Shown here: in pieces, positions 44,136 through 61,631 of the stretch
Numbering within the stretch: position 1 is the stretch's first letter
How the letters are laid out: every line of letters starts with the position of its first letter
Sequence record: NC_028957.1
Strand: one strand, 5' to 3'
DNA: 64,000 bases
DNA from: Escherichia phage vB_EcoM_VR26
Made by a program: the position numbers and the translations under genes
The notes under the pieces: generated by a model
The model's input: the letters and a program-made list of their open reading frames with translations, nothing else
Told to the model about the DNA's origin: nothing
The model's database searches: none

Positions 44136-44429
44136 ATGGCTGGATTAAGTTTTAATCAATGTGTTACAGCAGGTCACGAAGCATGGCCACCGACTGTAAT
44201 CAATGCAACTCAAGGTAAAGTATTCACCGGGGGAATTCCTGTGTTAGTTGCCGGGGACCCTATTACCGAACATACCGAAATTAAAAAACCATATGAAACC
44301 CACGGTGGAGTAACACAACCAAGAACTCCGAAGGTATTTGTTACCGGTAAGAAAGCTGTTCAAATGGCGGACCCGATTTCATGTGGTGATACTGTGGCTC
44401 AAGCTTCAGGAAAGGTGTTCATAAAATGA
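44136..44429 (+). CDS. 5.4: PAAR-repeat spike-tip protein gp5.4
   Basis: 97 aa, same length and position as T4 gp5.4; Gly/Val-rich PAAR-like sequence. Confidence 0.8.
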
Positions 44430-45103
44430 ACAAAGAATTTAATTTTGTATATGTAACTACAAACCTAGAAAATGGTAAAAAGTATATAGGCAAACATTCT
44501 ACTGATGATATGTTTGATGGATATTACGGTACAGGGGAGCTTATCAAAAAAGCTTATAAAAAATATGGAAAGGATTTGTTTGAGACAAAAATAATAAAAT
44601 TTTTTGATACTGAAGATGAGGCTTACGACTACGAAGAATTTTTAGTAGACGAATCTATAATTTATGATGATAGATATTATAATATAGATTTGGGTGGCAA
44701 AGGAAGTATGCGAGGAAGAAAGCATAAGGAATCTTCAAAGAAGCAAATATCAGACAAAATGAAGGGTAGGTCAAAGCCACCACGAAGTAAAGAATATATT
44801 GAAAATTTTGAAAAAGCTATGGCCAAAAGGAGAAAACCTAAGTCACCTCCTAAACCGAGGGTTTTTGTTAGAGGAGAAGAACATCCTTTATATAAAAGAC
44901 CCAGACCGCAATCTGTTATTGACCTATGTAAACTTAATAATAGAAAACACCCCATATGGCAATCATACGATATTTTATTCAAATTATGGAAAGAAAATGA
45001 TAAGCCAGGTTGGAGAAAAATGACCCGATTAGCCATTGAAAACGGATTTCCAAATACGGCTTATGATAAAATGATAAAACAATTTAAACAGGATTCAGAA
45101 TAA
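44426..45103 (+). CDS. GIY-YIG homing endonuclease (Seg-like) inserted between 5.4 and 6
   Basis: [25 protein letters not shown] motif, [23 protein letters not shown]3-like basic tail; ATGA and TAATG coupling to both neighbours. Confidence 0.85.
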
Positions 45104-56141: not shown

Positions 56142-58310
56142 ATGATTAATAAACTCAGTCTCAAAGAACTGCCGTATAGCATCGGTATTCCAGACGAAGG
56201 TCAACAGAGAATTCGTTGGATACAAAACGGTGATTGTATGACTGCGGCCAGTACCAAATATGGTCATGATGGTAATTTGAACGCCGCCGCGGTTGGCGTT
56301 CAAACAAACGTAGATACACTCGACGACAACTCAAATACATCTAAAGAAAAAATCAATGAAATTATTGATAACGTCAATAATATCCAGGAAGCTTTGGATA
56401 TAACAACTAACACGGAAGTTGTTAAGCAAATTGAAAAAAACCGTACGGATATTCTTGACCTGGACGAACGTCAATTTAATACCGAATTGCTGTCAAGCGA
56501 AACATCAGAAGGTCTTAAAACGTTAAAGGAAGATGTTGGTGTTTATGACCCATTAACCGATTCATATTATCGCACTGTTCGTAATGACCTTGTATGGATT
56601 AAAAATGAATTAGGTCAGTATGTTGACCAAGATATAAATGGTCTACAGGTTATTGGTAATCCATCAAGAGGCATGAAACGTCGCATCATCGATAACAGTT
56701 CGGCTATTGTTGCTCATGGAGTTCGTATTAAGACTCTTGAGGATAATTACCATGATTCTGATGTTGGTTCTCTTAACGTAAAAGTAATTAAAATTCGCGA
56801 AGAATTGGGTGAGTCGACTTTAGCAGTAGGTAAACCAGCTGTATTTGTTCGACTGAATACTCTTGACGACAAAGTAGTCGAAATTGACAAAGATATTGCC
56901 AATATTCAAGAAGATATCGGTTTTGGCACCGGGCTTGCAATTACAACTCGCGTTGAAAATCTTGGTGGACGTGTTTCGGTCAATGAAACAGATATTGCGA
57001 ATATCAAACCAAGACTCACTAAGGTTGAAGCTGATATCGGCACCGCTCTGGAACCATTAACAATTAATGGTCGAATCAGTGCTTTGCGCTCGGATGTTAA
57101 TGGATTGCAGGCTGTTGTTGGTCAGGATTCAAGTTCAGGTTTGCGCGGAACCACTGCATGGCTTTCTCAGAGAATCGGTACAGAGCAATCTCCGGAGCCA
57201 AACACCATCACGTATAAGTTGAATGCAACCACTGCGCTGGCTAATGAAACTGTATCAGGTCTCCAGGATGTGCAGGCTGAAATTGGTACAAATAGCACTG
57301 GTATGAAAGGTTCTATTTTGACTTTAACTAGCCAGATGAACGGGACTAACCCTAACGGTGCTACTGTGGCTGAACGTGGTGTTCTTCCAGTCGTAATTAA
57401 CTTGGATATGTTGATGGCATCCAAGCTGAACGATGCACCGTTGGACAACAAGTTATACGGCCGCAAGCAAGGTGCCTGGTCTGAAATTATCGATTCCACA
57501 ACCGAAGTTGATGCAGTTAAAGCTTCATTGGTAACAACTGATGGACGCGTAACAACATTAACTGGTCGTGTCGATGATAATGATACAACAATCAGTTCGT
57601 TAGATACTCGTTATGGTGCATTGAACACTTCCGTTACGAATGTTAAGGCAGATGTTCTCGCTCTGCAAAATAAAGATACGGAACAAGATGGTCGAATTAC
57701 TGCATTAGAAACGAAGGATACGACTGTTGATGGTAAAATAACCGCATTGGAAACTAAAACATCTACGACCGATGATGATGTCACTGCTTTAGCTTTAGAC
57801 GTTAGCAATGTTGAAGGTGAGCTGGTTACCATTAAAGCAAATATCGAAACAAACAAAGGCGGTTTGGTAACCTTGACCGGTCGAATGACTTCGGCGGAAG
57901 GGGAAATCACTGCAATTAAACTCGATACTGCAAAAATTACACCGTTAACTGCTCGTGTTTCATCAAGTGAAAACGAAATCACTGCAATTAAACTCGATAC
58001 TGCAAAAATTGCGCCGCTAGACGAAAGAGTTACAACAGCTGAAGATGAAATCAATACGATTAAAATCGATACTGCAAAAATTGCACCGTTAACTACTCGT
58101 GTGACAACTCTTGAAGGTACAGTAACTCCGCTCCCTGGTCGCCTGGATGCAGCCGAGACGAAGATAACTACTTTAGAAGGTAAAGTATCAGCCTTAGAAA
58201 CGGAGCTCGCCAAAAGGCCTCCTGTCGCTCCTGTGGCTGATGGTCTCCCTTACGTGCTTGTTGATAATGCATGGGTTCTTTTGTCTACATTCGTGACTGT
58301 TGGACCATAA
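56142..58310 (+). CDS. wac: Fibritin (whisker) Wac, expanded coiled-coil form
   Basis: 722 aa; YRTVRNDLVWIKNELGQYVDQDINGL as in T4 fibritin; C-terminal foldon-like DGLPYVLVDNAWVLLSTFV. Confidence 0.9.
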   Translation: MINKLSLKELPYSIGIPDEGQQRIRWIQNGDCMTAASTKYGHDGNLNAAAVGVQTNVDTLDDNSNTSKEKINEIIDNVNNIQEALDITTNTEVVKQIEKNRTDILDLDERQFNTELLSSETSEGLKTLKEDVGVYDPLTDSYYRTVRNDLVWIKNELGQYVDQDINGLQVIGNPSRGMKRRIIDNSSAIVAHGVRIKTLEDNYHDSDVGSLNVKVIKIREELGESTLAVGKPAVFVRLNTLDDKVVEIDKDIANIQEDIGFGTGLAITTRVENLGGRVSVNETDIANIKPRLTKVEADIGTALEPLTINGRISALRSDVNGLQAVVGQDSSSGLRGTTAWLSQRIGTEQSPEPNTITYKLNATTALANETVSGLQDVQAEIGTNSTGMKGSILTLTSQMNGTNPNGATVAERGVLPVVINLDMLMASKLNDAPLDNKLYGRKQGAWSEIIDSTTEVDAVKASLVTTDGRVTTLTGRVDDNDTTISSLDTRYGALNTSVTNVKADVLALQNKDTEQDGRITALETKDTTVDGKITALETKTSTTDDDVTALALDVSNVEGELVTIKANIETNKGGLVTLTGRMTSAEGEITAIKLDTAKITPLTARVSSSENEITAIKLDTAKIAPLDERVTTAEDEINTIKIDTAKIAPLTTRVTTLEGTVTPLPGRLDAAETKITTLEGKVSALETELAKRPPVAPVADGLPYVLVDNAWVLLSTFVTVGP
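57903..58118 (+). repeat. Three tandem 72-nt (24-codon) repeats inside wac
   Basis: gaaatcactgcaattaaactcgatactgcaaaaatt... recurs at 57903, 57975, 58047 (EITAIKLDTAKI(T/A)PL...). Confidence 0.7.
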
Positions 58311-58313
58311 CAA

Positions 58314-58334
58314 AAGGGCTTCGGCCCTTTTTTC
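58314..58334 (+). terminator. Rho-independent terminator after wac
   Basis: AAGGGC-ttcg-GCCCTT followed by TTTT. Confidence 0.65.
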
Positions 58335-58335
58335 G

Positions 58336-58343
58336 TATAAATA
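58336..58343 (+). promoter_or_regulatory. Late promoter TATAAATA for gene 13
   Basis: Exact TATAAATA 18 nt upstream of ATG. Confidence 0.6.
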
Positions 58344-58361
58344 CAGTAAAGAGGAAAACAT

Positions 58362-59300
58362 ATGGCAACTGAATCATACAACCCGAAACAATTAAAAGAT
58401 GCAATCCTTCGTCGTCTTGGTGCTCCAATCACGAATATCGAAGTTACGACCGACCAAGTCTATGATTGCATCCAGCGTGCATTAGAATTATACGGTGAAT
58501 ATCATTATAATGGATATAACAAAGGTTATCAGGCTTTTTATATCGGTCATGATGAAGTTTCACAACAGAAATTCCGCGATGGTGTTTTCGATTTAAAAGG
58601 ACGTAATATTTTTGCAGTAACGCAGATTATTCGTACTAACGTCGGTTCATTAACTTCAATGGACGGACAAGCCACATATCCATGGTTTACAGATTTCGTT
58701 CTGGGCCTTGCCGGGATTAACGGTGGGATGGGTAGCTCGTGTAATAGCTTTGGTCCAAATGCTTTTGGTGCAGACCTTGGTTATTTTACACAGCTTATGC
58801 AATATCGTTCAATGATGCAAGACCTGATGGTTCCGCTTCCGGATTACTGGTATAACGATGATACCGAACAACTTAAAATTATGGGCAACTTCCGTCAGGG
58901 GGATGTGATTGTAATTGAAGTTTATACCAAATCGTATAACGGTGTGGATTCAATGGTTGGCAATACAGCTGGTTATGGTTTTGCCTCGGCTGATTGTGAT
59001 AATCCGTGGAATGCCGGTGCACAGTGGGATAACCCGGCGCGCAGAATAAGCGGTATGAGAGCTGGTGAGGACCTTGGACTTCAAGATGGTGCATACAACA
59101 ACCGTTGGGTGAAAGACTATGCCACGGCGCTTGTTAAGGAAGTTAACGGCAACGTATTGGCTAAACACCAAGGGATGATGATGCCAGGTGGAGTTACGGT
59201 CGATGGTGTTCGTTTAATCGAAGAAGCTCGTATGGAAAAAGAACGTCTCCGCGAAGAACTTGACCTGCTGGATGCACCGACTCCTATATTGGTGGGCTAA
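58362..59300 (+). CDS. 13: Neck protein gp13
   Basis: 312 aa; [39 protein letters not shown] matches T4 gp13. Confidence 0.95.
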
Positions 59301-59935
59301 TGGCTACATATTATAGACTTTATGTGTCGACATTTGAAACATCTAATGGGGTAATGGTGTATGGCGGTAAACGTCATTCACCATATGAAGATTTTAAAGC
59401 AGATAGTTATTTTGGGTCGGGTACTATTGTTAAACGAGCTAAACAAAAATATGGAAGAAAATGTTTAGTCGATATTACCTGGTCTAAACCTTTTGAATCC
59501 CCTGCTCTATTAAAGGAAGCCGAGGCTTTACTAGTCAGTGAACTTTTAGAAAGTTTTGATAATTGTGCAAATTTACACCCAACAGGGGGAGGTGGCCCGG
59601 AAGGTTATAGTCGTCCAGAAGATTCCCCTGCTTTTGGTAAAAAGAGAACAGCAGAATCAAGAAAACGAATGTCGGAAGCCGCAAAACAAAGGGAATGGTC
59701 CGAAGAGGGATTAAAACGTCGTAAAGAGGCAACAGCTCGAATGTGGATTGATTTTAAGGACCGACATCCTGATTTTTCTGATGATAAAAATCCGGCCGCA
59801 CGTAAAATTATTACCGGCGACCTAGAATTTTGTACCGGAAGAAAATGTGCAGAATATTATTCGATAACTCCGGCTGCAGTCATTTACAGATGTAAAAGTA
59901 CAGCCGAAAAATGGAAATTATGGAATTATGCGTAA
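59300..59935 (+). CDS. GIY-YIG-like (Seg-like, possibly degenerate) homing endonuclease inserted between 13 and 14
   Basis: [22 protein letters not shown] and [18 protein letters not shown] align with the Seg-like ORF at 44426; NUMOD3-like [13 protein letters not shown]. Confidence 0.6.
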
Positions 59936-60716
59936 TTCTTATGATGCAAGCTTATTCGCCCGACTTGAAGATGGAACCGGGTATGACAATACAAACTCGT
60001 CAGAGATACTCAACCAATATGTAAACTTTATGCATCATGAAAATACCCAGACTTTAGCCGATGTTATTGTTGCTGAAAGTATTCAGATGCGCGGAATGTC
60101 TCTCTATTACATCCCAAGACAATTCGTTAAACCAGATTTGTTATTCGGCGAAGACCTCCAGAGCAAATTTGATAAAGCATGGAAATTTGCTGGTTATCTG
60201 GATACATTCGATGCATATCAGGGTGATGGTTCCATCTTCAGTAAATTTGGTATGACTGTGAATGATGAAATCACAGTGTCGATTAACCCTAATCTGTTTA
60301 AACATCAATGTAATGGAACCGAACCTATTGCCGGGGATTTGATTTATTTCCCTCTCGATAACAGTCTGTTCGAAATAACCTGGGTACAGCCTTATGACCC
60401 ATTCTATCAGGTAGGTCAAAACGCCATCCGTAAAATCACCGCGAGCAAATACATTTACTCCGGAGAAGAGCTTAAACCTGAATTGCAACGAAATGAAGGT
60501 ATTAATATTCCAGAATTCAGTGAGCTCGATTTGCAACCAATCCACAATATCGATGGCCTTACAGATATCAGTGATATCCCTTATGCAGAATCTGATGAGA
60601 TTAACGCAGAAGCAGCTGAATATGTTAAACCATATTTTGTGCAGAATGGTCGTGGGATTGAGTCTCCTCCTAAGGCAAAACAGGATAGCTTTGACGACAG
60701 TTTCTTTGATGAATAA
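59928..60716 (+). CDS. 14: Neck protein gp14
   Basis: 262 aa; [26 protein letters not shown]...[24 protein letters not shown] matches T4 gp14. Confidence 0.9.
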
Positions 60717-60759
60717 ATACATTTATTAATGCGCCCGAACTGGGCGCCTGGAGGTTACT

Positions 60760-61631
60760 TTGTTTGGGCATTTTTATAATTCGTCTCTGCGTCGCTATAT
60801 CGTTTTAATGGGCGATTTATTTTCCCATGTACAAGTGGCCAGAACCAGAGAAGACACTGGACTTAAATATATTAAGGTCCCTATTTCTTATGCTTCAAAA
60901 GAAAAATTCATGATGCAGCTTGGAAAATGGACCGCTATTCAGAATACACCGACTCCTGACATGACACCGCAAGAACGTGCTGCTCAGAAGGCTAAAATCG
61001 AGACCGTACTGCCCCGTATGAACTTACATCTTGTTGACTTGATGTATAACGGGCAATATAAAACGGCTCTCCAGAATCACACACAGGCGCGATTTGCTAA
61101 TAACGACCCTCGCAAGCAGATATCTCAATATTCTCCTGTACCGGTCAAAATGATTTTTGAGCTTGGGATATATACAAGGCATCAAGATGATATGTTCCAG
61201 ATTATCGAACAAATCATGCCTTACTTCCAACCGCATTTTAATACAACTATCACTGAACTTTACACGAATGAAATTACATTCGAACGTGATATAAGAATCG
61301 TGCTTCAGTCCATTGCTATGGATGAGCAAATTGAAGGTGATGCAATGACTCGTCGTAGACTCGAATGGTCCATTATGTTCGAAGTCAACGGCTGGTTATA
61401 TCCACCGGTTAAAGAAGTGGCCGGAGAAATCCGTACTATCTATCTTGACTTCTTTGCAAATTCCAGAGAGCTTGCGCCGGAAGGTAATTTCGAATCTGTT
61501 GACTCGGAAGCCGTTCCGCGAGACGTTGACCAAGAAGACTGGCAAGGTGAATCCATTCAAACATATTCGCAGGATATTCCTGTACCGGTTGACCCGGTAC
61601 CCCCAGCACCGCGACAAAATAAGGTACCATT

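What the first reader, a model, noticed from the sequence alone, without database searches (positions are those of the whole stretch)
59300..59935. Second, more degenerate Seg-like ORF wedged between neck genes 13 and 14
The 211-aa ORF aligns by eye with the Seg-like protein at 44426 ([19 protein letters not shown] vs [17 protein letters not shown]; [18 protein letters not shown] vs [18 protein letters not shown]), but YIG is altered to VYGG, so it may be inactive. It begins MATY and overlaps both the gp13 stop and the gp14 start. From memory T4 gp14 begins MATYDKN..., which would mean the insert took over the original gene 14 start; this needs verification.
Basis: partly seen in the sequence, partly recalled or inferred. 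Interest (0 to 1): 0.6.

Follow-up and report, generated by a model that had tools for sequence, protein, structure and literature searches.

The report
Homing endonuclease borrowing gene 14's start
This is an intact, recently mobile selfish nuclease gene of a well-known phage type, sitting just inside the start of neck gene 14: it uses that gene's start signal and hands the gene a replacement, which is tidy but ordinary for T4-like phages.

Summary
The 211-aa ORF at 59300..59935 is real. It overlaps the gene 13 stop (TAATG) and the gene 14 start (ATGCGTAA).

It is a free-standing Seg-type GIY-YIG homing endonuclease gene:
- PHROG 314, 4e-30.
- BLASTP E=4e-9 to T4 SegC and 3e-10 to the window's other Seg.

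The closest genome, TH15, lacks the gene. It reads ...TAATGGCTACATAT|GAC, so a 631-nt insert follows codon 4 of gene 14. The ORF is read from gene 14's original start. Gene 14 restarts (MRNSY) from an ATG inside the ORF's last codons.

"Degenerate or inactive" is not supported:
- YGG is conserved across the whole family, and Tyr8, Tyr21, Glu75 and Asn91 are invariant.
- dN/dS is 0.05.
- The same allele (0-5 nt differences) sits in backbones that differ by 4-8% in the flanks.

Orthologues occupy the same site in five genera and are already annotated, for example as SP18 "segC". It is a new member of a known kind, of low to moderate interest.

The parts
58336..58343 (+). T4-type late promoter consensus TATAAATA upstream of gene 13. 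It is the only such match on this strand between 51203 and 63436, so it is the presumed promoter for a 13-HEG-14 transcript.
   Evidence: No sigma-70-like or terminator-like signal stands out between genes 13 and 14. The use of this promoter is inferred.
58362..59300 (+). Gene 13 (neck, head-tail adaptor), 312 aa. Its TAA stop shares one base with the endonuclease ATG (TAATG).
   Evidence: phrog_211, 8e-42. Annotated as gp13 in SP18 and VR7.
59300..59311 (+). Captured gene 14 start: ATG GCT ACA TAT (MATY). It is identical to the gene 14 start of the insert-free phages VR7 and TH15 and has the same TAATG overlap with gene 13.
   Evidence: T4 gp14 MATYDKN. The other five HEG+ database phages read ATGACTACATAC or similar here.
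59300..59935 (+). Free-standing Seg-type GIY-YIG homing endonuclease gene, 211 aa.
   Evidence: phrog_314 homing endonuclease 4e-30. BLASTP to T4 SegC E=4e-9. 96-97% identical to the annotated 'homing endonuclease'/'segC' of RZ, SP18, pEC and P8.
59312..59942 (+). The 631-nt insertion relative to insert-free TH15/VR7. The boundaries are ambiguous by 3 nt because TAT flanks both ends.
   Evidence: (1501 nt of query against 870 nt in TH15).
59309..59578 (+). GIY-YIG catalytic domain (about aa 4-93): RLY (Tyr8), YGG (Tyr21, Gly23), Glu75, Asn91.
59624..59674 (+). NUMOD3-like DNA-binding motif in the linker (aa 109-125).
   Evidence: Pfam PF07460, E=0.0045, below the curated cutoff for this sequence but found in 8 of 9 family members.
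59792..59932 (+). C-terminal helix-turn-helix subdomain like that of the I-TevI DNA-binding domain (about aa 165-211).
   Evidence: Family profile against PDB 1I3J/1T2T, E=1.4e-4. PF20987 in 6 of 9 members. AF2 pLDDT is 88-92 here.
59928..59935 (+). ATGCGTAA: the replacement start codon of gene 14 lies inside the last codons of the endonuclease gene (…W N Y A *), an 8-nt overlap.
   Evidence: All 11 endonuclease genes examined at this site show the same 8- or 14-nt overlap.
59928..60716 (+). Gene 14 (neck, head closure), 262 aa. Its N-terminus is MRNSYDAS instead of the native MATYDAN.
   Evidence: Pfam T4_neck-protein 2e-103.
59943..60017 (+). Co-converted right flank. The first 75 nt or so of resumed gene 14 carry the HEG+ allele (11 of 12 differences fixed between HEG+ and HEG- phages). 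The backbone returns to TH15 type by 60059.
   Evidence: There are 16/81 differences from TH15 here against 47/2818 elsewhere, Fisher p=4e-12.

Best explanation
The ORF is an intact, probably active, free-standing Seg-type GIY-YIG homing endonuclease gene (HEG). It belongs to a lineage that homes into the 5' end of neck gene 14 of T4-like phages.

**Shown**
- Compared with its closest insert-free relative, the window carries a 631-nt insert straight after codon 4 of gene 14.
- The HEG reading frame therefore opens with gene 14's own ATG and first four codons (MATY) and keeps the native TAATG overlap with gene 13.
- The last codons of the HEG contain a new ATG from which gene 14 restarts, one residue longer (MRNSY instead of MATY).

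**Inferred**
- The three genes are co-transcribed late from the promoter upstream of gene 13 and are translationally coupled (TAATG, then ATGCGTAA).
- The protein binds the unoccupied gene 13/14 junction through its NUMOD3 and helix-turn-helix tail and cuts nearby with the GIY-YIG domain.
- Repair from an HEG+ co-infecting genome copies the gene together with roughly 35-130 nt of flank.
- HEG+ alleles are protected by the insertion itself and by the block of substitutions in the first ~80 nt of gene 14.
For: **Family assignment**
- phrog_314, 4e-30.
- BLASTP to T4 SegC E=4e-9 and to the window's other Seg E=3e-10.
- Family profile hit to the I-TevI DNA-binding domain, E=1.4e-4.

**Intactness and selection**
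- Y8, Y21, G23, E75 and N91 are invariant across 9 sequences; they align to I-TevI Y6, Y17, G19, E75 and N90.
- dN/dS is 0.05 at dS 0.33 against SP18. gp13 gives 0.050 and gp14 0.048.

**Sporadic presence**
- Present in 7 of the 31 Gaprivervirus-group records, those matching at 90% identity or more (35 records matched in all).
- Present in 16 of 112 records matched by the Slopekvirus query.

**Start capture**
- The empty site reads ...GGGCTAATGGCTACATAT|GACGCG.
- The same capture of the gene 14 SD and ATG occurs in Slopekvirus: KP27 taaGGAGGAAAAATGCAAAAT against RCIP0008 taaGGAGGAAAAATGCACTATAGA.
- It also occurs in Tequatrovirus F2 (MATY) and Dhakavirus MX01 (same ATG).

**Mobility**
- The window backbone is TH15-like, 97.5% over 24 kb.
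- It switches to the HEG+ allele only from 59312 to about 60017.
- The exact protein occurs on 13 metagenome contigs. In five compared base by base, the HEG differs by 0-5 nt. Their gene 13 differs by 64-73 of 938 nt and their right flank by 50-69 of 1400 nt. The nearly identical block runs from about 59202-59266 to about 60046-60063; one of the five has a single difference inside it, at 59975.

**Expression context**
- The late promoter consensus lies only upstream of gene 13.
- T4 free-standing HEGs are typically promoter-less, overlapping cassettes; mobE, for example, overlaps nrdA as UAAUGA (PMC2988022).
Against: - No enzyme activity or cleavage site is known for any member of this lineage.
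- Pfam GIY-YIG and SegE_GIY-YIG models give no hit to this sequence at E<=1. The hhalign match to I-TevI is weak on its own (E 0.028).
- The equivalent of I-TevI Arg27 cannot be assigned. The candidates are R25 and R46, and neither is invariant.
- The middle residue of YIG is Gly, which is unusual.
- The Shine-Dalgarno-like sequence upstream of the new gene 14 ATG is weak in this genus (GGAA) compared with AAGGAG or GGGAGG in other genera. Gene 14 expression therefore rests on inferred coupling.
- The direction of the conversion event is inferred, not shown: gain in the window lineage, or loss in TH15.
Confidence: 0.85

Rival explanations
1. The gene is a degenerate, catalytically dead remnant of a Seg gene. 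It would be retained only because its 3' end now supplies the gene 14 start.
For: - YIG reads YGG.
- There is no Pfam GIY-YIG hit.
- The Arg27 equivalent is ambiguous.
- The 3' end is indeed needed for the gene 14 start.
Against: - Retention for the 3' end alone would not constrain the whole ORF, yet dN/dS is 0.05 over all 211 codons, with 36.5 synonymous against 8.5 non-synonymous differences.
- YGG and the Tyr, Tyr, Glu and Asn residues are conserved in orthologues down to 50% identity in five genera.
- A near-identical allele in backbones that differ by 4-8% indicates recent spread.
- T4 SegC, listed as an active enzyme (PMC2988022), also lacks Arg at the R46 position.
Confidence: 0.07
2. 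The protein is domesticated. It still binds or cuts DNA, but it is kept for a benefit to the phage rather than for its own homing. Possible benefits are exclusion of competing phages' gene 13-14 alleles or regulation of neck-gene expression.
For: - Purifying selection is as strong as on the structural neighbours.
- Expression is tied to structural late genes.
- I-TevI is known to double as an autorepressor (PMC2988022).
Against: - The gene is absent from most close relatives, so it is dispensable.
- The co-conversion pattern and the spread of one allele among diverged backbones are what homing predicts.
- Marker exclusion is simply the population-level face of homing, so this rival is hard to separate from the main explanation.
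Confidence: 0.06
3. The MATY match is a coincidence. The endonuclease gene brought its own start codon and simply sits in the intergenic space.
For: In Krischvirus (Phi1, G5211, E26) related genes have their own SD and ATG in a real intergenic spacer.
Against: - Twelve of 12 nt are identical to the empty-site gene 14 start, at the identical position relative to the gene 13 stop.
- The N-terminal residues ahead of the conserved [YF]RLY core track the local gp14 N-terminus in three genera: MATY in Gaprivervirus and Tequatrovirus, MQ in the Slopekvirus phT4A.
- There is no intergenic space between genes 13 and 14 in this genus.
Confidence: 0.02

Closest known systems
Annotated orthologues at the same site: Shigella phage SP18 'segC' (ADO19516), Escherichia phages RZ, pEC-M719-6WT.2 and TH40, Yersinia phage P8
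   Same: - 96-97% protein identity.
- Same position between genes 13 and 14.
- Same 8-nt overlap with gene 14.

   Different: - They carry a different allele, 43-47 nt apart.
- They have a different left flank: gene 13 ends ...GGGTGA, then TTA, then ATG(A/G)CTAC, so the gene does not overlap the gene 13 stop.
- In the window the left flank is the insert-free type.
- SP18's gp14 is annotated from an internal Met.
T4 SegC (free-standing GIY-YIG homing endonuclease between genes 5.1 and 5.3)
   Same: - The catalytic domain is homologous: 30% identity over 126 aa, E=4e-9.
- Both are promoter-less cassettes that overlap the upstream ORF (PMC2988022).
   Different: - It sits at a different site and has the canonical YVG motif.
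- The T4 annotation is only 140 aa and lacks the helix-turn-helix tail.
- The name 'segC' given to the gene 13/14 element in SP18 and Phi1 reflects similarity, not orthology.
I-TevI (intron-encoded GIY-YIG endonuclease of T4 td)
   Different: - The window gene is free-standing, not intron-encoded, and no Rfam intron was found.
- No Zn-finger cysteines are evident.
- It has one helix where I-TevI has two between strands 2 and 3.
T4 mobE/nrdA, and SegF and SegG (intronless homing with co-conversion of flanks)
   Same: - Start and stop overlap of the UAAUG type, suggesting translational coupling.
- Promoter-less cassette.
- Spread together with flanking polymorphisms (PMC2988022; references to SegF and SegG in PMC2993671).
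   Different: - Those genes lie between host genes.
- Here the insert lies inside the first codons of the target gene, uses that gene's initiation region, and supplies a substitute.
Aeromonas phage Aeh1 mobE inside a ribonucleotide reductase gene ('genes in pieces'). Recalled from memory, not checked here.
   Same: A free-standing HEG lies inside a coding region, and the downstream part of the host gene is re-initiated.
   Different: There the host protein is split into two functional polypeptides. Here only 3-4 N-terminal residues are exchanged.

Membership tests
GIY-YIG homing endonucleases, Seg type (free-standing, T4-like phages) | GIY-YIG alpha/beta catalytic fold | tested here: met
GIY-YIG homing endonucleases, Seg type (free-standing, T4-like phages) | Conserved Tyr of 'GIY', Tyr and Gly of 'YIG', catalytic Glu (I-TevI E75) and Asn (N90) | tested here: met
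   Y8, Y21, G23, E75 and N91 are invariant in A3. They align to I-TevI Y6, Y17, G19, E75 and N90 (a weak alignment backed by the fold match). The motifs read RLY and YGG rather than GIY and YIG.
GIY-YIG homing endonucleases, Seg type (free-standing, T4-like phages) | Catalytic Arg (I-TevI R27) | tested here: inconclusive
   The candidates are R25 (GGKRHS) and R46 (IVKRA). Neither column is invariant. hhalign places the R27 region opposite a gap. T4 SegC has Asn at the R46 column.
GIY-YIG homing endonucleases, Seg type (free-standing, T4-like phages) | Match to curated sequence models (Pfam PF01541 GIY-YIG, PF19835 SegE_GIY-YIG, TIGR01453) | tested here: not met
   - No Pfam catalytic-domain hit at E<=1.
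- TIGR01453 scores only 15.6 bits against a cutoff of 56.
- PHROG 314 'homing endonuclease' does match, 4e-30.
- T4 SegC, to which the ORF is related at E=4e-9, passes PF19835.
- This is a detection criterion, not a biochemical definition.
GIY-YIG homing endonucleases, Seg type (free-standing, T4-like phages) | Separate C-terminal DNA-binding module (NUMOD3 and/or helix-turn-helix) | tested here: met
   - NUMOD3 in 8 of 9 family members; E=0.0045 in this one, below the cutoff.
- Profile against the I-TevI DNA-binding domain 1I3J, E=1.4e-4.
GIY-YIG homing endonucleases, Seg type (free-standing, T4-like phages) | Sporadic presence or absence at one precise site among close relatives | tested here: met
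   - Present in 7 of the 31 Gaprivervirus-group records (matches at 90% identity or more) and in 16 of 112 records matched by the Slopekvirus query.
- Junctions are clean to the nucleotide.
GIY-YIG homing endonucleases, Seg type (free-standing, T4-like phages) | Co-conversion of flanking markers and horizontal spread | tested here: met
   - Fixed HEG+/HEG- differences occur only next to the insert.
- The window is a TH15-like backbone with a donor-type tract from 59312 to about 60017.
- The same allele sits in backbones that differ by 4-8%.
GIY-YIG homing endonucleases, Seg type (free-standing, T4-like phages) | Site-specific double-strand cleavage of the insert-free allele and biased inheritance in crosses | not testable with these tools
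   Needs biochemistry and phage crosses. No paper on this element was found.
Group I intron-encoded endonuclease | ORF embedded in a self-splicing intron | tested here: not met
   No Rfam family matches at E<=1 in 58200-60900. Gene 14 restarts from its own ATG, so no splicing is needed.

The most novel reading that the evidence does not exclude
This endonuclease lineage may be a mobile cassette that has no translation-initiation region of its own in most genera.

- It lands a few codons into essential gene 14 and is translated from that gene's ribosome-binding site and ATG.
- Its own last codons (KW..W.Y*) carry a portable SD-like sequence and ATG that re-start gene 14.
- The element's 3' end would thereby become essential to the phage, giving built-in protection against anything but precise loss.
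- The same tail-plus-start module is shared by a GIY-YIG nuclease and an HNH nuclease at the same site (phage FB). The DNA-binding and initiation module, rather than the nuclease, would then be the unit adapted to this site.
Probability: 0.35. Interest if true: 0.5.

Novelty: new member of a known kind. Interest (0 to 1): 0.3.

Why it matters
For annotation:
- The ORF is a real homing endonuclease gene, not a pseudogene.
- gp14 in HEG+ phages starts at the ATG inside the endonuclease gene. SP18's gp14 is annotated from an internal Met because of this.

For phage biology:
- It is a clean natural before/after pair. TH15-like backbones exist with and without the element, and one allele sits in several diverged backbones. 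That would allow direct tests of intronless homing and of co-conversion tract length.
- It would also allow a test of how an essential late gene tolerates having its initiation region swapped.

The start-swap layout recurs in at least four genera. I found no description of it in the searchable literature. It remains a variation on well-known behaviour of T4 seg and mob genes.

Tried and rejected
- **Curated models.** Pfam and NCBIfam scans gave no usable catalytic-domain hit for this sequence. I relied instead on PHROGs, pairwise homology to T4 SegC, and the fold.
- **Arg27 equivalent.** Assignment failed. Model coordinates are not exposed, so I could not superpose.
- **Regulatory hairpins.** I looked for hairpins around the two start codons, as known for I-TevI and mobE. 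The z-scores ran from -1.16 to +0.70, so nothing was significant.
- **Intron.** I looked for a group I intron or any Rfam family and found none.
- **More family members.** The IMG/VR scan returned only 2 loci. The large protein search returned only 9 clusters. The family is small.
- **Literature.** Four searches found no paper describing an endonuclease at the gene 13/14 junction or start-codon exchange. The reviews read do not mention it.
- **In-frame insertion.** I first took the insert to be in frame (633 nt) and rejected that on recount. Against TH15 it is 631 nt, and gene 14 resumes in the +1 frame relative to the endonuclease ORF.

Full report
**Observation.** The ORF is there as described: 59300..59935, + strand, 211 aa, ATG start. 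The sequence reads ...GGGCTAATGGCTACATATTATAGACTT... Here TAA (59298-59300) ends gene 13 and ATG (59300-02) opens the ORF. At the other end...TGGAATTATGCGTAATTCTTATGAT... holds the ATG of gene 14 (59928-30) five bases ahead of the ORF's TAA (59933-35). The neighbours are the two neck proteins. The upstream ORF matches phrog_211, head-tail adaptor (8e-42). The downstream ORF matches Pfam T4_neck-protein (2e-103).

**What the protein is.**
- The ORF matches PHROG 314 'homing endonuclease' over its whole length (4e-30).
- It is homologous to the other Seg-like ORF of the window, 44426..45103 (28% identity, E=3e-10).
- It is homologous to T4 SegC (30% over 126 aa, E=4e-9). T4 SegC itself passes the Pfam SegE_GIY-YIG threshold.
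- Pfam's catalytic-domain models do not see this sequence directly. Only a sub-threshold NUMOD3 hit appears.
- An AlphaFold2 model built on an 11-sequence alignment is confident over the N-terminal 90 residues and the C-terminal 45.
[quoted passage not shown] Other GIY-YIG enzymes follow: UvrC, T4 EndoII, Eco29kI and SLX1.
- A profile of the family hits the I-TevI DNA-binding domain (1I3J, E=1.4e-4).
- The protein therefore has the I-TevI/Seg two-domain plan.

**Is it degenerate?** No.
- I collected orthologues from six groups of phages and aligned them.
- All members of the lineage that share 50-97% identity with the ORF have (I/V)-Y-G-G-K where canonical Seg proteins have Y-(I/V)-G. Aligned properly, the motif is Y21-G22-G23 and only the middle residue has changed.
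- Y8, Y21, G23, E75 and N91 are invariant in the nine-sequence alignment A3 that includes the canonical Phi1 SegC and the window's other Seg. In the eleven-sequence alignment A4, Y21 and G23 are 'nearly invariant', at 90% or more.
- They line up with I-TevI Y6, Y17, G19, E75 and N90.
- The one catalytic residue I could not place is the equivalent of Arg27. R25 and R46 are candidates, and neither column is invariant. T4 SegC is listed as an active, mobile endonuclease in the Edgell, Gibb and Belfort review (PMC2988022). It has Asn at the R46 column, so that position is not diagnostic.
- Against the SP18 allele the ORF has 45 nucleotide differences but only 8 amino-acid changes. dN/dS is 0.05 at dS 0.33, the same as for gp13 (0.050) and gp14 (0.048).

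**Start-codon capture.**
T4 gp14 begins MATYDKNLFAKLENRTGY.
- More to the point, the window belongs to the genus Gaprivervirus. Its closest sequenced relative, TH15 (97.5% over 24 kb), lacks the ORF, as do VR7 and about 20 others.
- Their junction reads ...GGGCTAATGGCTACATAT GAC GCG AAC..., which gives gp14 = MATYDAN.
- The window reads ...GGGCTAATGGCTACATAT [631 nt] GAT GCA AGC....
- The insert therefore follows codon 4 of gene 14, and the endonuclease ORF is opened by gene 14's own ATG and first four codons.
- The last 15 nt of the insert (ATG CGT AAT TCT TAT) give gene 14 a new start, MRNSY, in the +1 frame relative to the endonuclease.
- In the T4 neck cryo-EM model, gp14 is built from residue 5 (PMC12929587). 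The exchanged residues are thus the unmodelled tip. By inference, this is why the swap is tolerated.

**The same trick in other genera.** tblastn finds orthologues (49-59% identity) at the same junction in several genera. A distant relative (31%) is annotated 'SegC' in Phi1.

| Genus | Phage with the gene | Insert-free comparison | What the endonuclease gene uses |
|---|---|---|---|
| Slopekvirus | RCIP0008 (taaGGAGGAAAAATGCACTATAGA), phT4A (taaGGGGGAAAAATGCAATTTAGA) | KP27: taaGGAGGAAAAATGCAAAAT (gp14 MQNW...) | Gene 14's SD, ATG and part of codon 2; gene 14 restarts as MRDW |
| Tequatrovirus | F2: starts MATY; gene 14 restarts MSTYNSN | T4: MATYDKN | Gene 14's start codons |
| Dhakavirus | MX01 | Bp7 | The very ATG that Bp7 uses for gene 14 |
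| Krischvirus | Phi1, G5211, E26 | pEJ01 | Its own SD, because a real spacer separates genes 13 and 14 |

In all 11 endonuclease genes examined at this site, the stop overlaps the gene 14 ATG by 8 or 14 nt. An SD-like AAGGAG or GGGAGG is usually encoded by the conserved K-W-x-x-W codons; it is weaker (GGAA) in Gaprivervirus.

**Evidence of mobility.**
- I compared five HEG+ and five HEG- Gaprivervirus genomes over 3.6 kb. The only fixed differences are nine substitutions plus a 4-nt indel in the last 20 nt of gene 13 (59280-59297), and twelve substitutions in the first ~80 nt of resumed gene 14 (59945-60017).
- The window carries the HEG+ state at 11 of the 12 right-hand sites but the HEG- state at all nine left-hand sites. 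Its MATY codons match the HEG- sequence exactly.
- The left crossover therefore fell at or within the 12 nt shared by the endonuclease gene and gene 14.
- Against TH15 the window has 16 differences in the 81 nt after the insert, compared with 47 in the other 2818 nt compared (Fisher p=4e-12).
- The exact 211-aa protein occurs on 13 metagenome contigs. In five that I compared base by base, the endonuclease gene differs from the window's by 0-5 nt. Their gene 13 differs by 64-73 of 938 nt and the downstream 1400 nt by 50-69.
- The nearly identical block runs from about 59202-59266 to about 60046-60063. One contig, L030, has a single difference inside it, at 59975.
- One allele in several diverged backbones, carried with short flanks, is what homing with co-conversion produces. 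The direction of any single event (gain here or loss in TH15) is inferred.

**Expression (inferred).**
- The only T4-type late promoter consensus nearby is at 58336-58343, just upstream of gene 13.
- Nothing promoter-like or terminator-like stands out between the genes.
- There is no significant hairpin at either start and no Rfam hit, so no intron.
- The likely arrangement is one late transcript with two coupled restarts, TAATG and ATGCGTAA. This resembles the overlapping, promoter-less layout described for T4 mobE, segC and segF (PMC2988022).

**Comparison with what is known, and novelty.**
- The gene is already annotated as a homing endonuclease in public records: 'segC' in SP18 and Phi1, and 'homing endonuclease' in RZ, P8, pEC and many Klebsiella phages.
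- The window's allele differs by 43-47 nt from the Gaprivervirus alleles in the phage collection, and it has the insert-free type of left flank.
- I found no paper that describes an endonuclease at the 13/14 junction or the exchange of initiation regions. That absence covers only the searchable open-access library.
- I rate it a new member of a known kind. The start-swap layout is a modest, unreported twist.

**Verdict.** Interest is 0.3.

Noticed in passing
L015:508-1152 (Escherichia phage vB_EcoM_FB, Dhakavirus, MT682711): At the same gene 13/14 site this phage carries an HNH endonuclease instead of a GIY-YIG one (Pfam HNH 7e-4, motif EKHHIVPKSMGG). Its C-terminal half (NUMOD3 plus I-TevI-like helix-turn-helix, ending KWRDWNYV*) is homologous to that of the window ORF (BLASTP E=3e-11 over 111 aa). 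It overlaps the gene 14 ATG by the same 8 nt. The nuclease domain appears to have been swapped on a shared site-specific tail.
   Followed up: partly
L016:502-1437 (Escherichia phage E26) and L009:1429-1494 (Phi1): Krischvirus phages carry two further versions at the same site. One is a 311-aa GIY-YIG protein with several NUMOD3-like repeats (E26). The other is the 194-aa Phi1 'SegC'. Upstream of the Phi1 gene lies an inverted repeat, GTTCTCGT...ACGAGAAC, just before its SD. This is reminiscent of the RBS-sequestering hairpins of T4 endonuclease genes.
   Followed up: no
L014:480-515 (pEJ01, insert-free) vs L011:1469-1485 (G5211): The insert-free Krischvirus spacer holds a GC-rich hairpin, GGGGGAGTATTCCCCC. 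In G5211 the left junction of the endonuclease gene falls in the loop, so the left arm GGGGGAG becomes the gene's Shine-Dalgarno sequence.
   Followed up: no
L001:2531-3319 (Shigella phage SP18, GQ981382): SP18 gp14 is annotated from an internal Met (locus 2633). This skips 34 codons, evidently because the true ATG is hidden inside the end of 'segC'. Other records, such as pEC and RZ, annotate it from 2531.
   Followed up: yes
L025:1360-1500 (vB_EcoM_005, MK295203 / IMGVR_UViG_2974741249_000001): Upstream of its endonuclease gene this record has an extra copy of the first ~99 nt of gene 14 (insert-free allele, MATFDSS...). A repeat of the last ~50 nt of gene 13 follows. Together they create a 257-aa fusion ORF. 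Gene 13 also shows frameshifts and an internal duplication. This is either a recombination intermediate or an assembly of a mixed HEG+/HEG- population.
   Followed up: partly
window 44426-45103: The other Seg-like gene (225 aa; TIGR01453 8.8e-12, canonical KYIG) is wedged in the same style. Its ATG overlaps the stop of gene 5.4 by 4 nt, and its stop shares a base with the gene 6 ATG at 45103. I did not check whether relatives lack it.
   Followed up: no
window ~57400-58100 (3' part of wac/fibritin, 56142-58310): This stretch is 97-100% identical to TH15 but essentially unalignable (about 40%) with SP18, pEC and VR7. Identity recovers to 95-100% near the gene's end. Fibritin appears to carry a swapped variable cassette.
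   Followed up: no
L032:1440-1510 (Logan ERR14760483 contig): One metagenome contig encodes exactly the window's endonuclease protein (4 nt differences) but has the SP18-type left flank (…GGGTGATTAATGGCTACATAT). The left flank and the endonuclease allele therefore reassort independently.
   Followed up: partly
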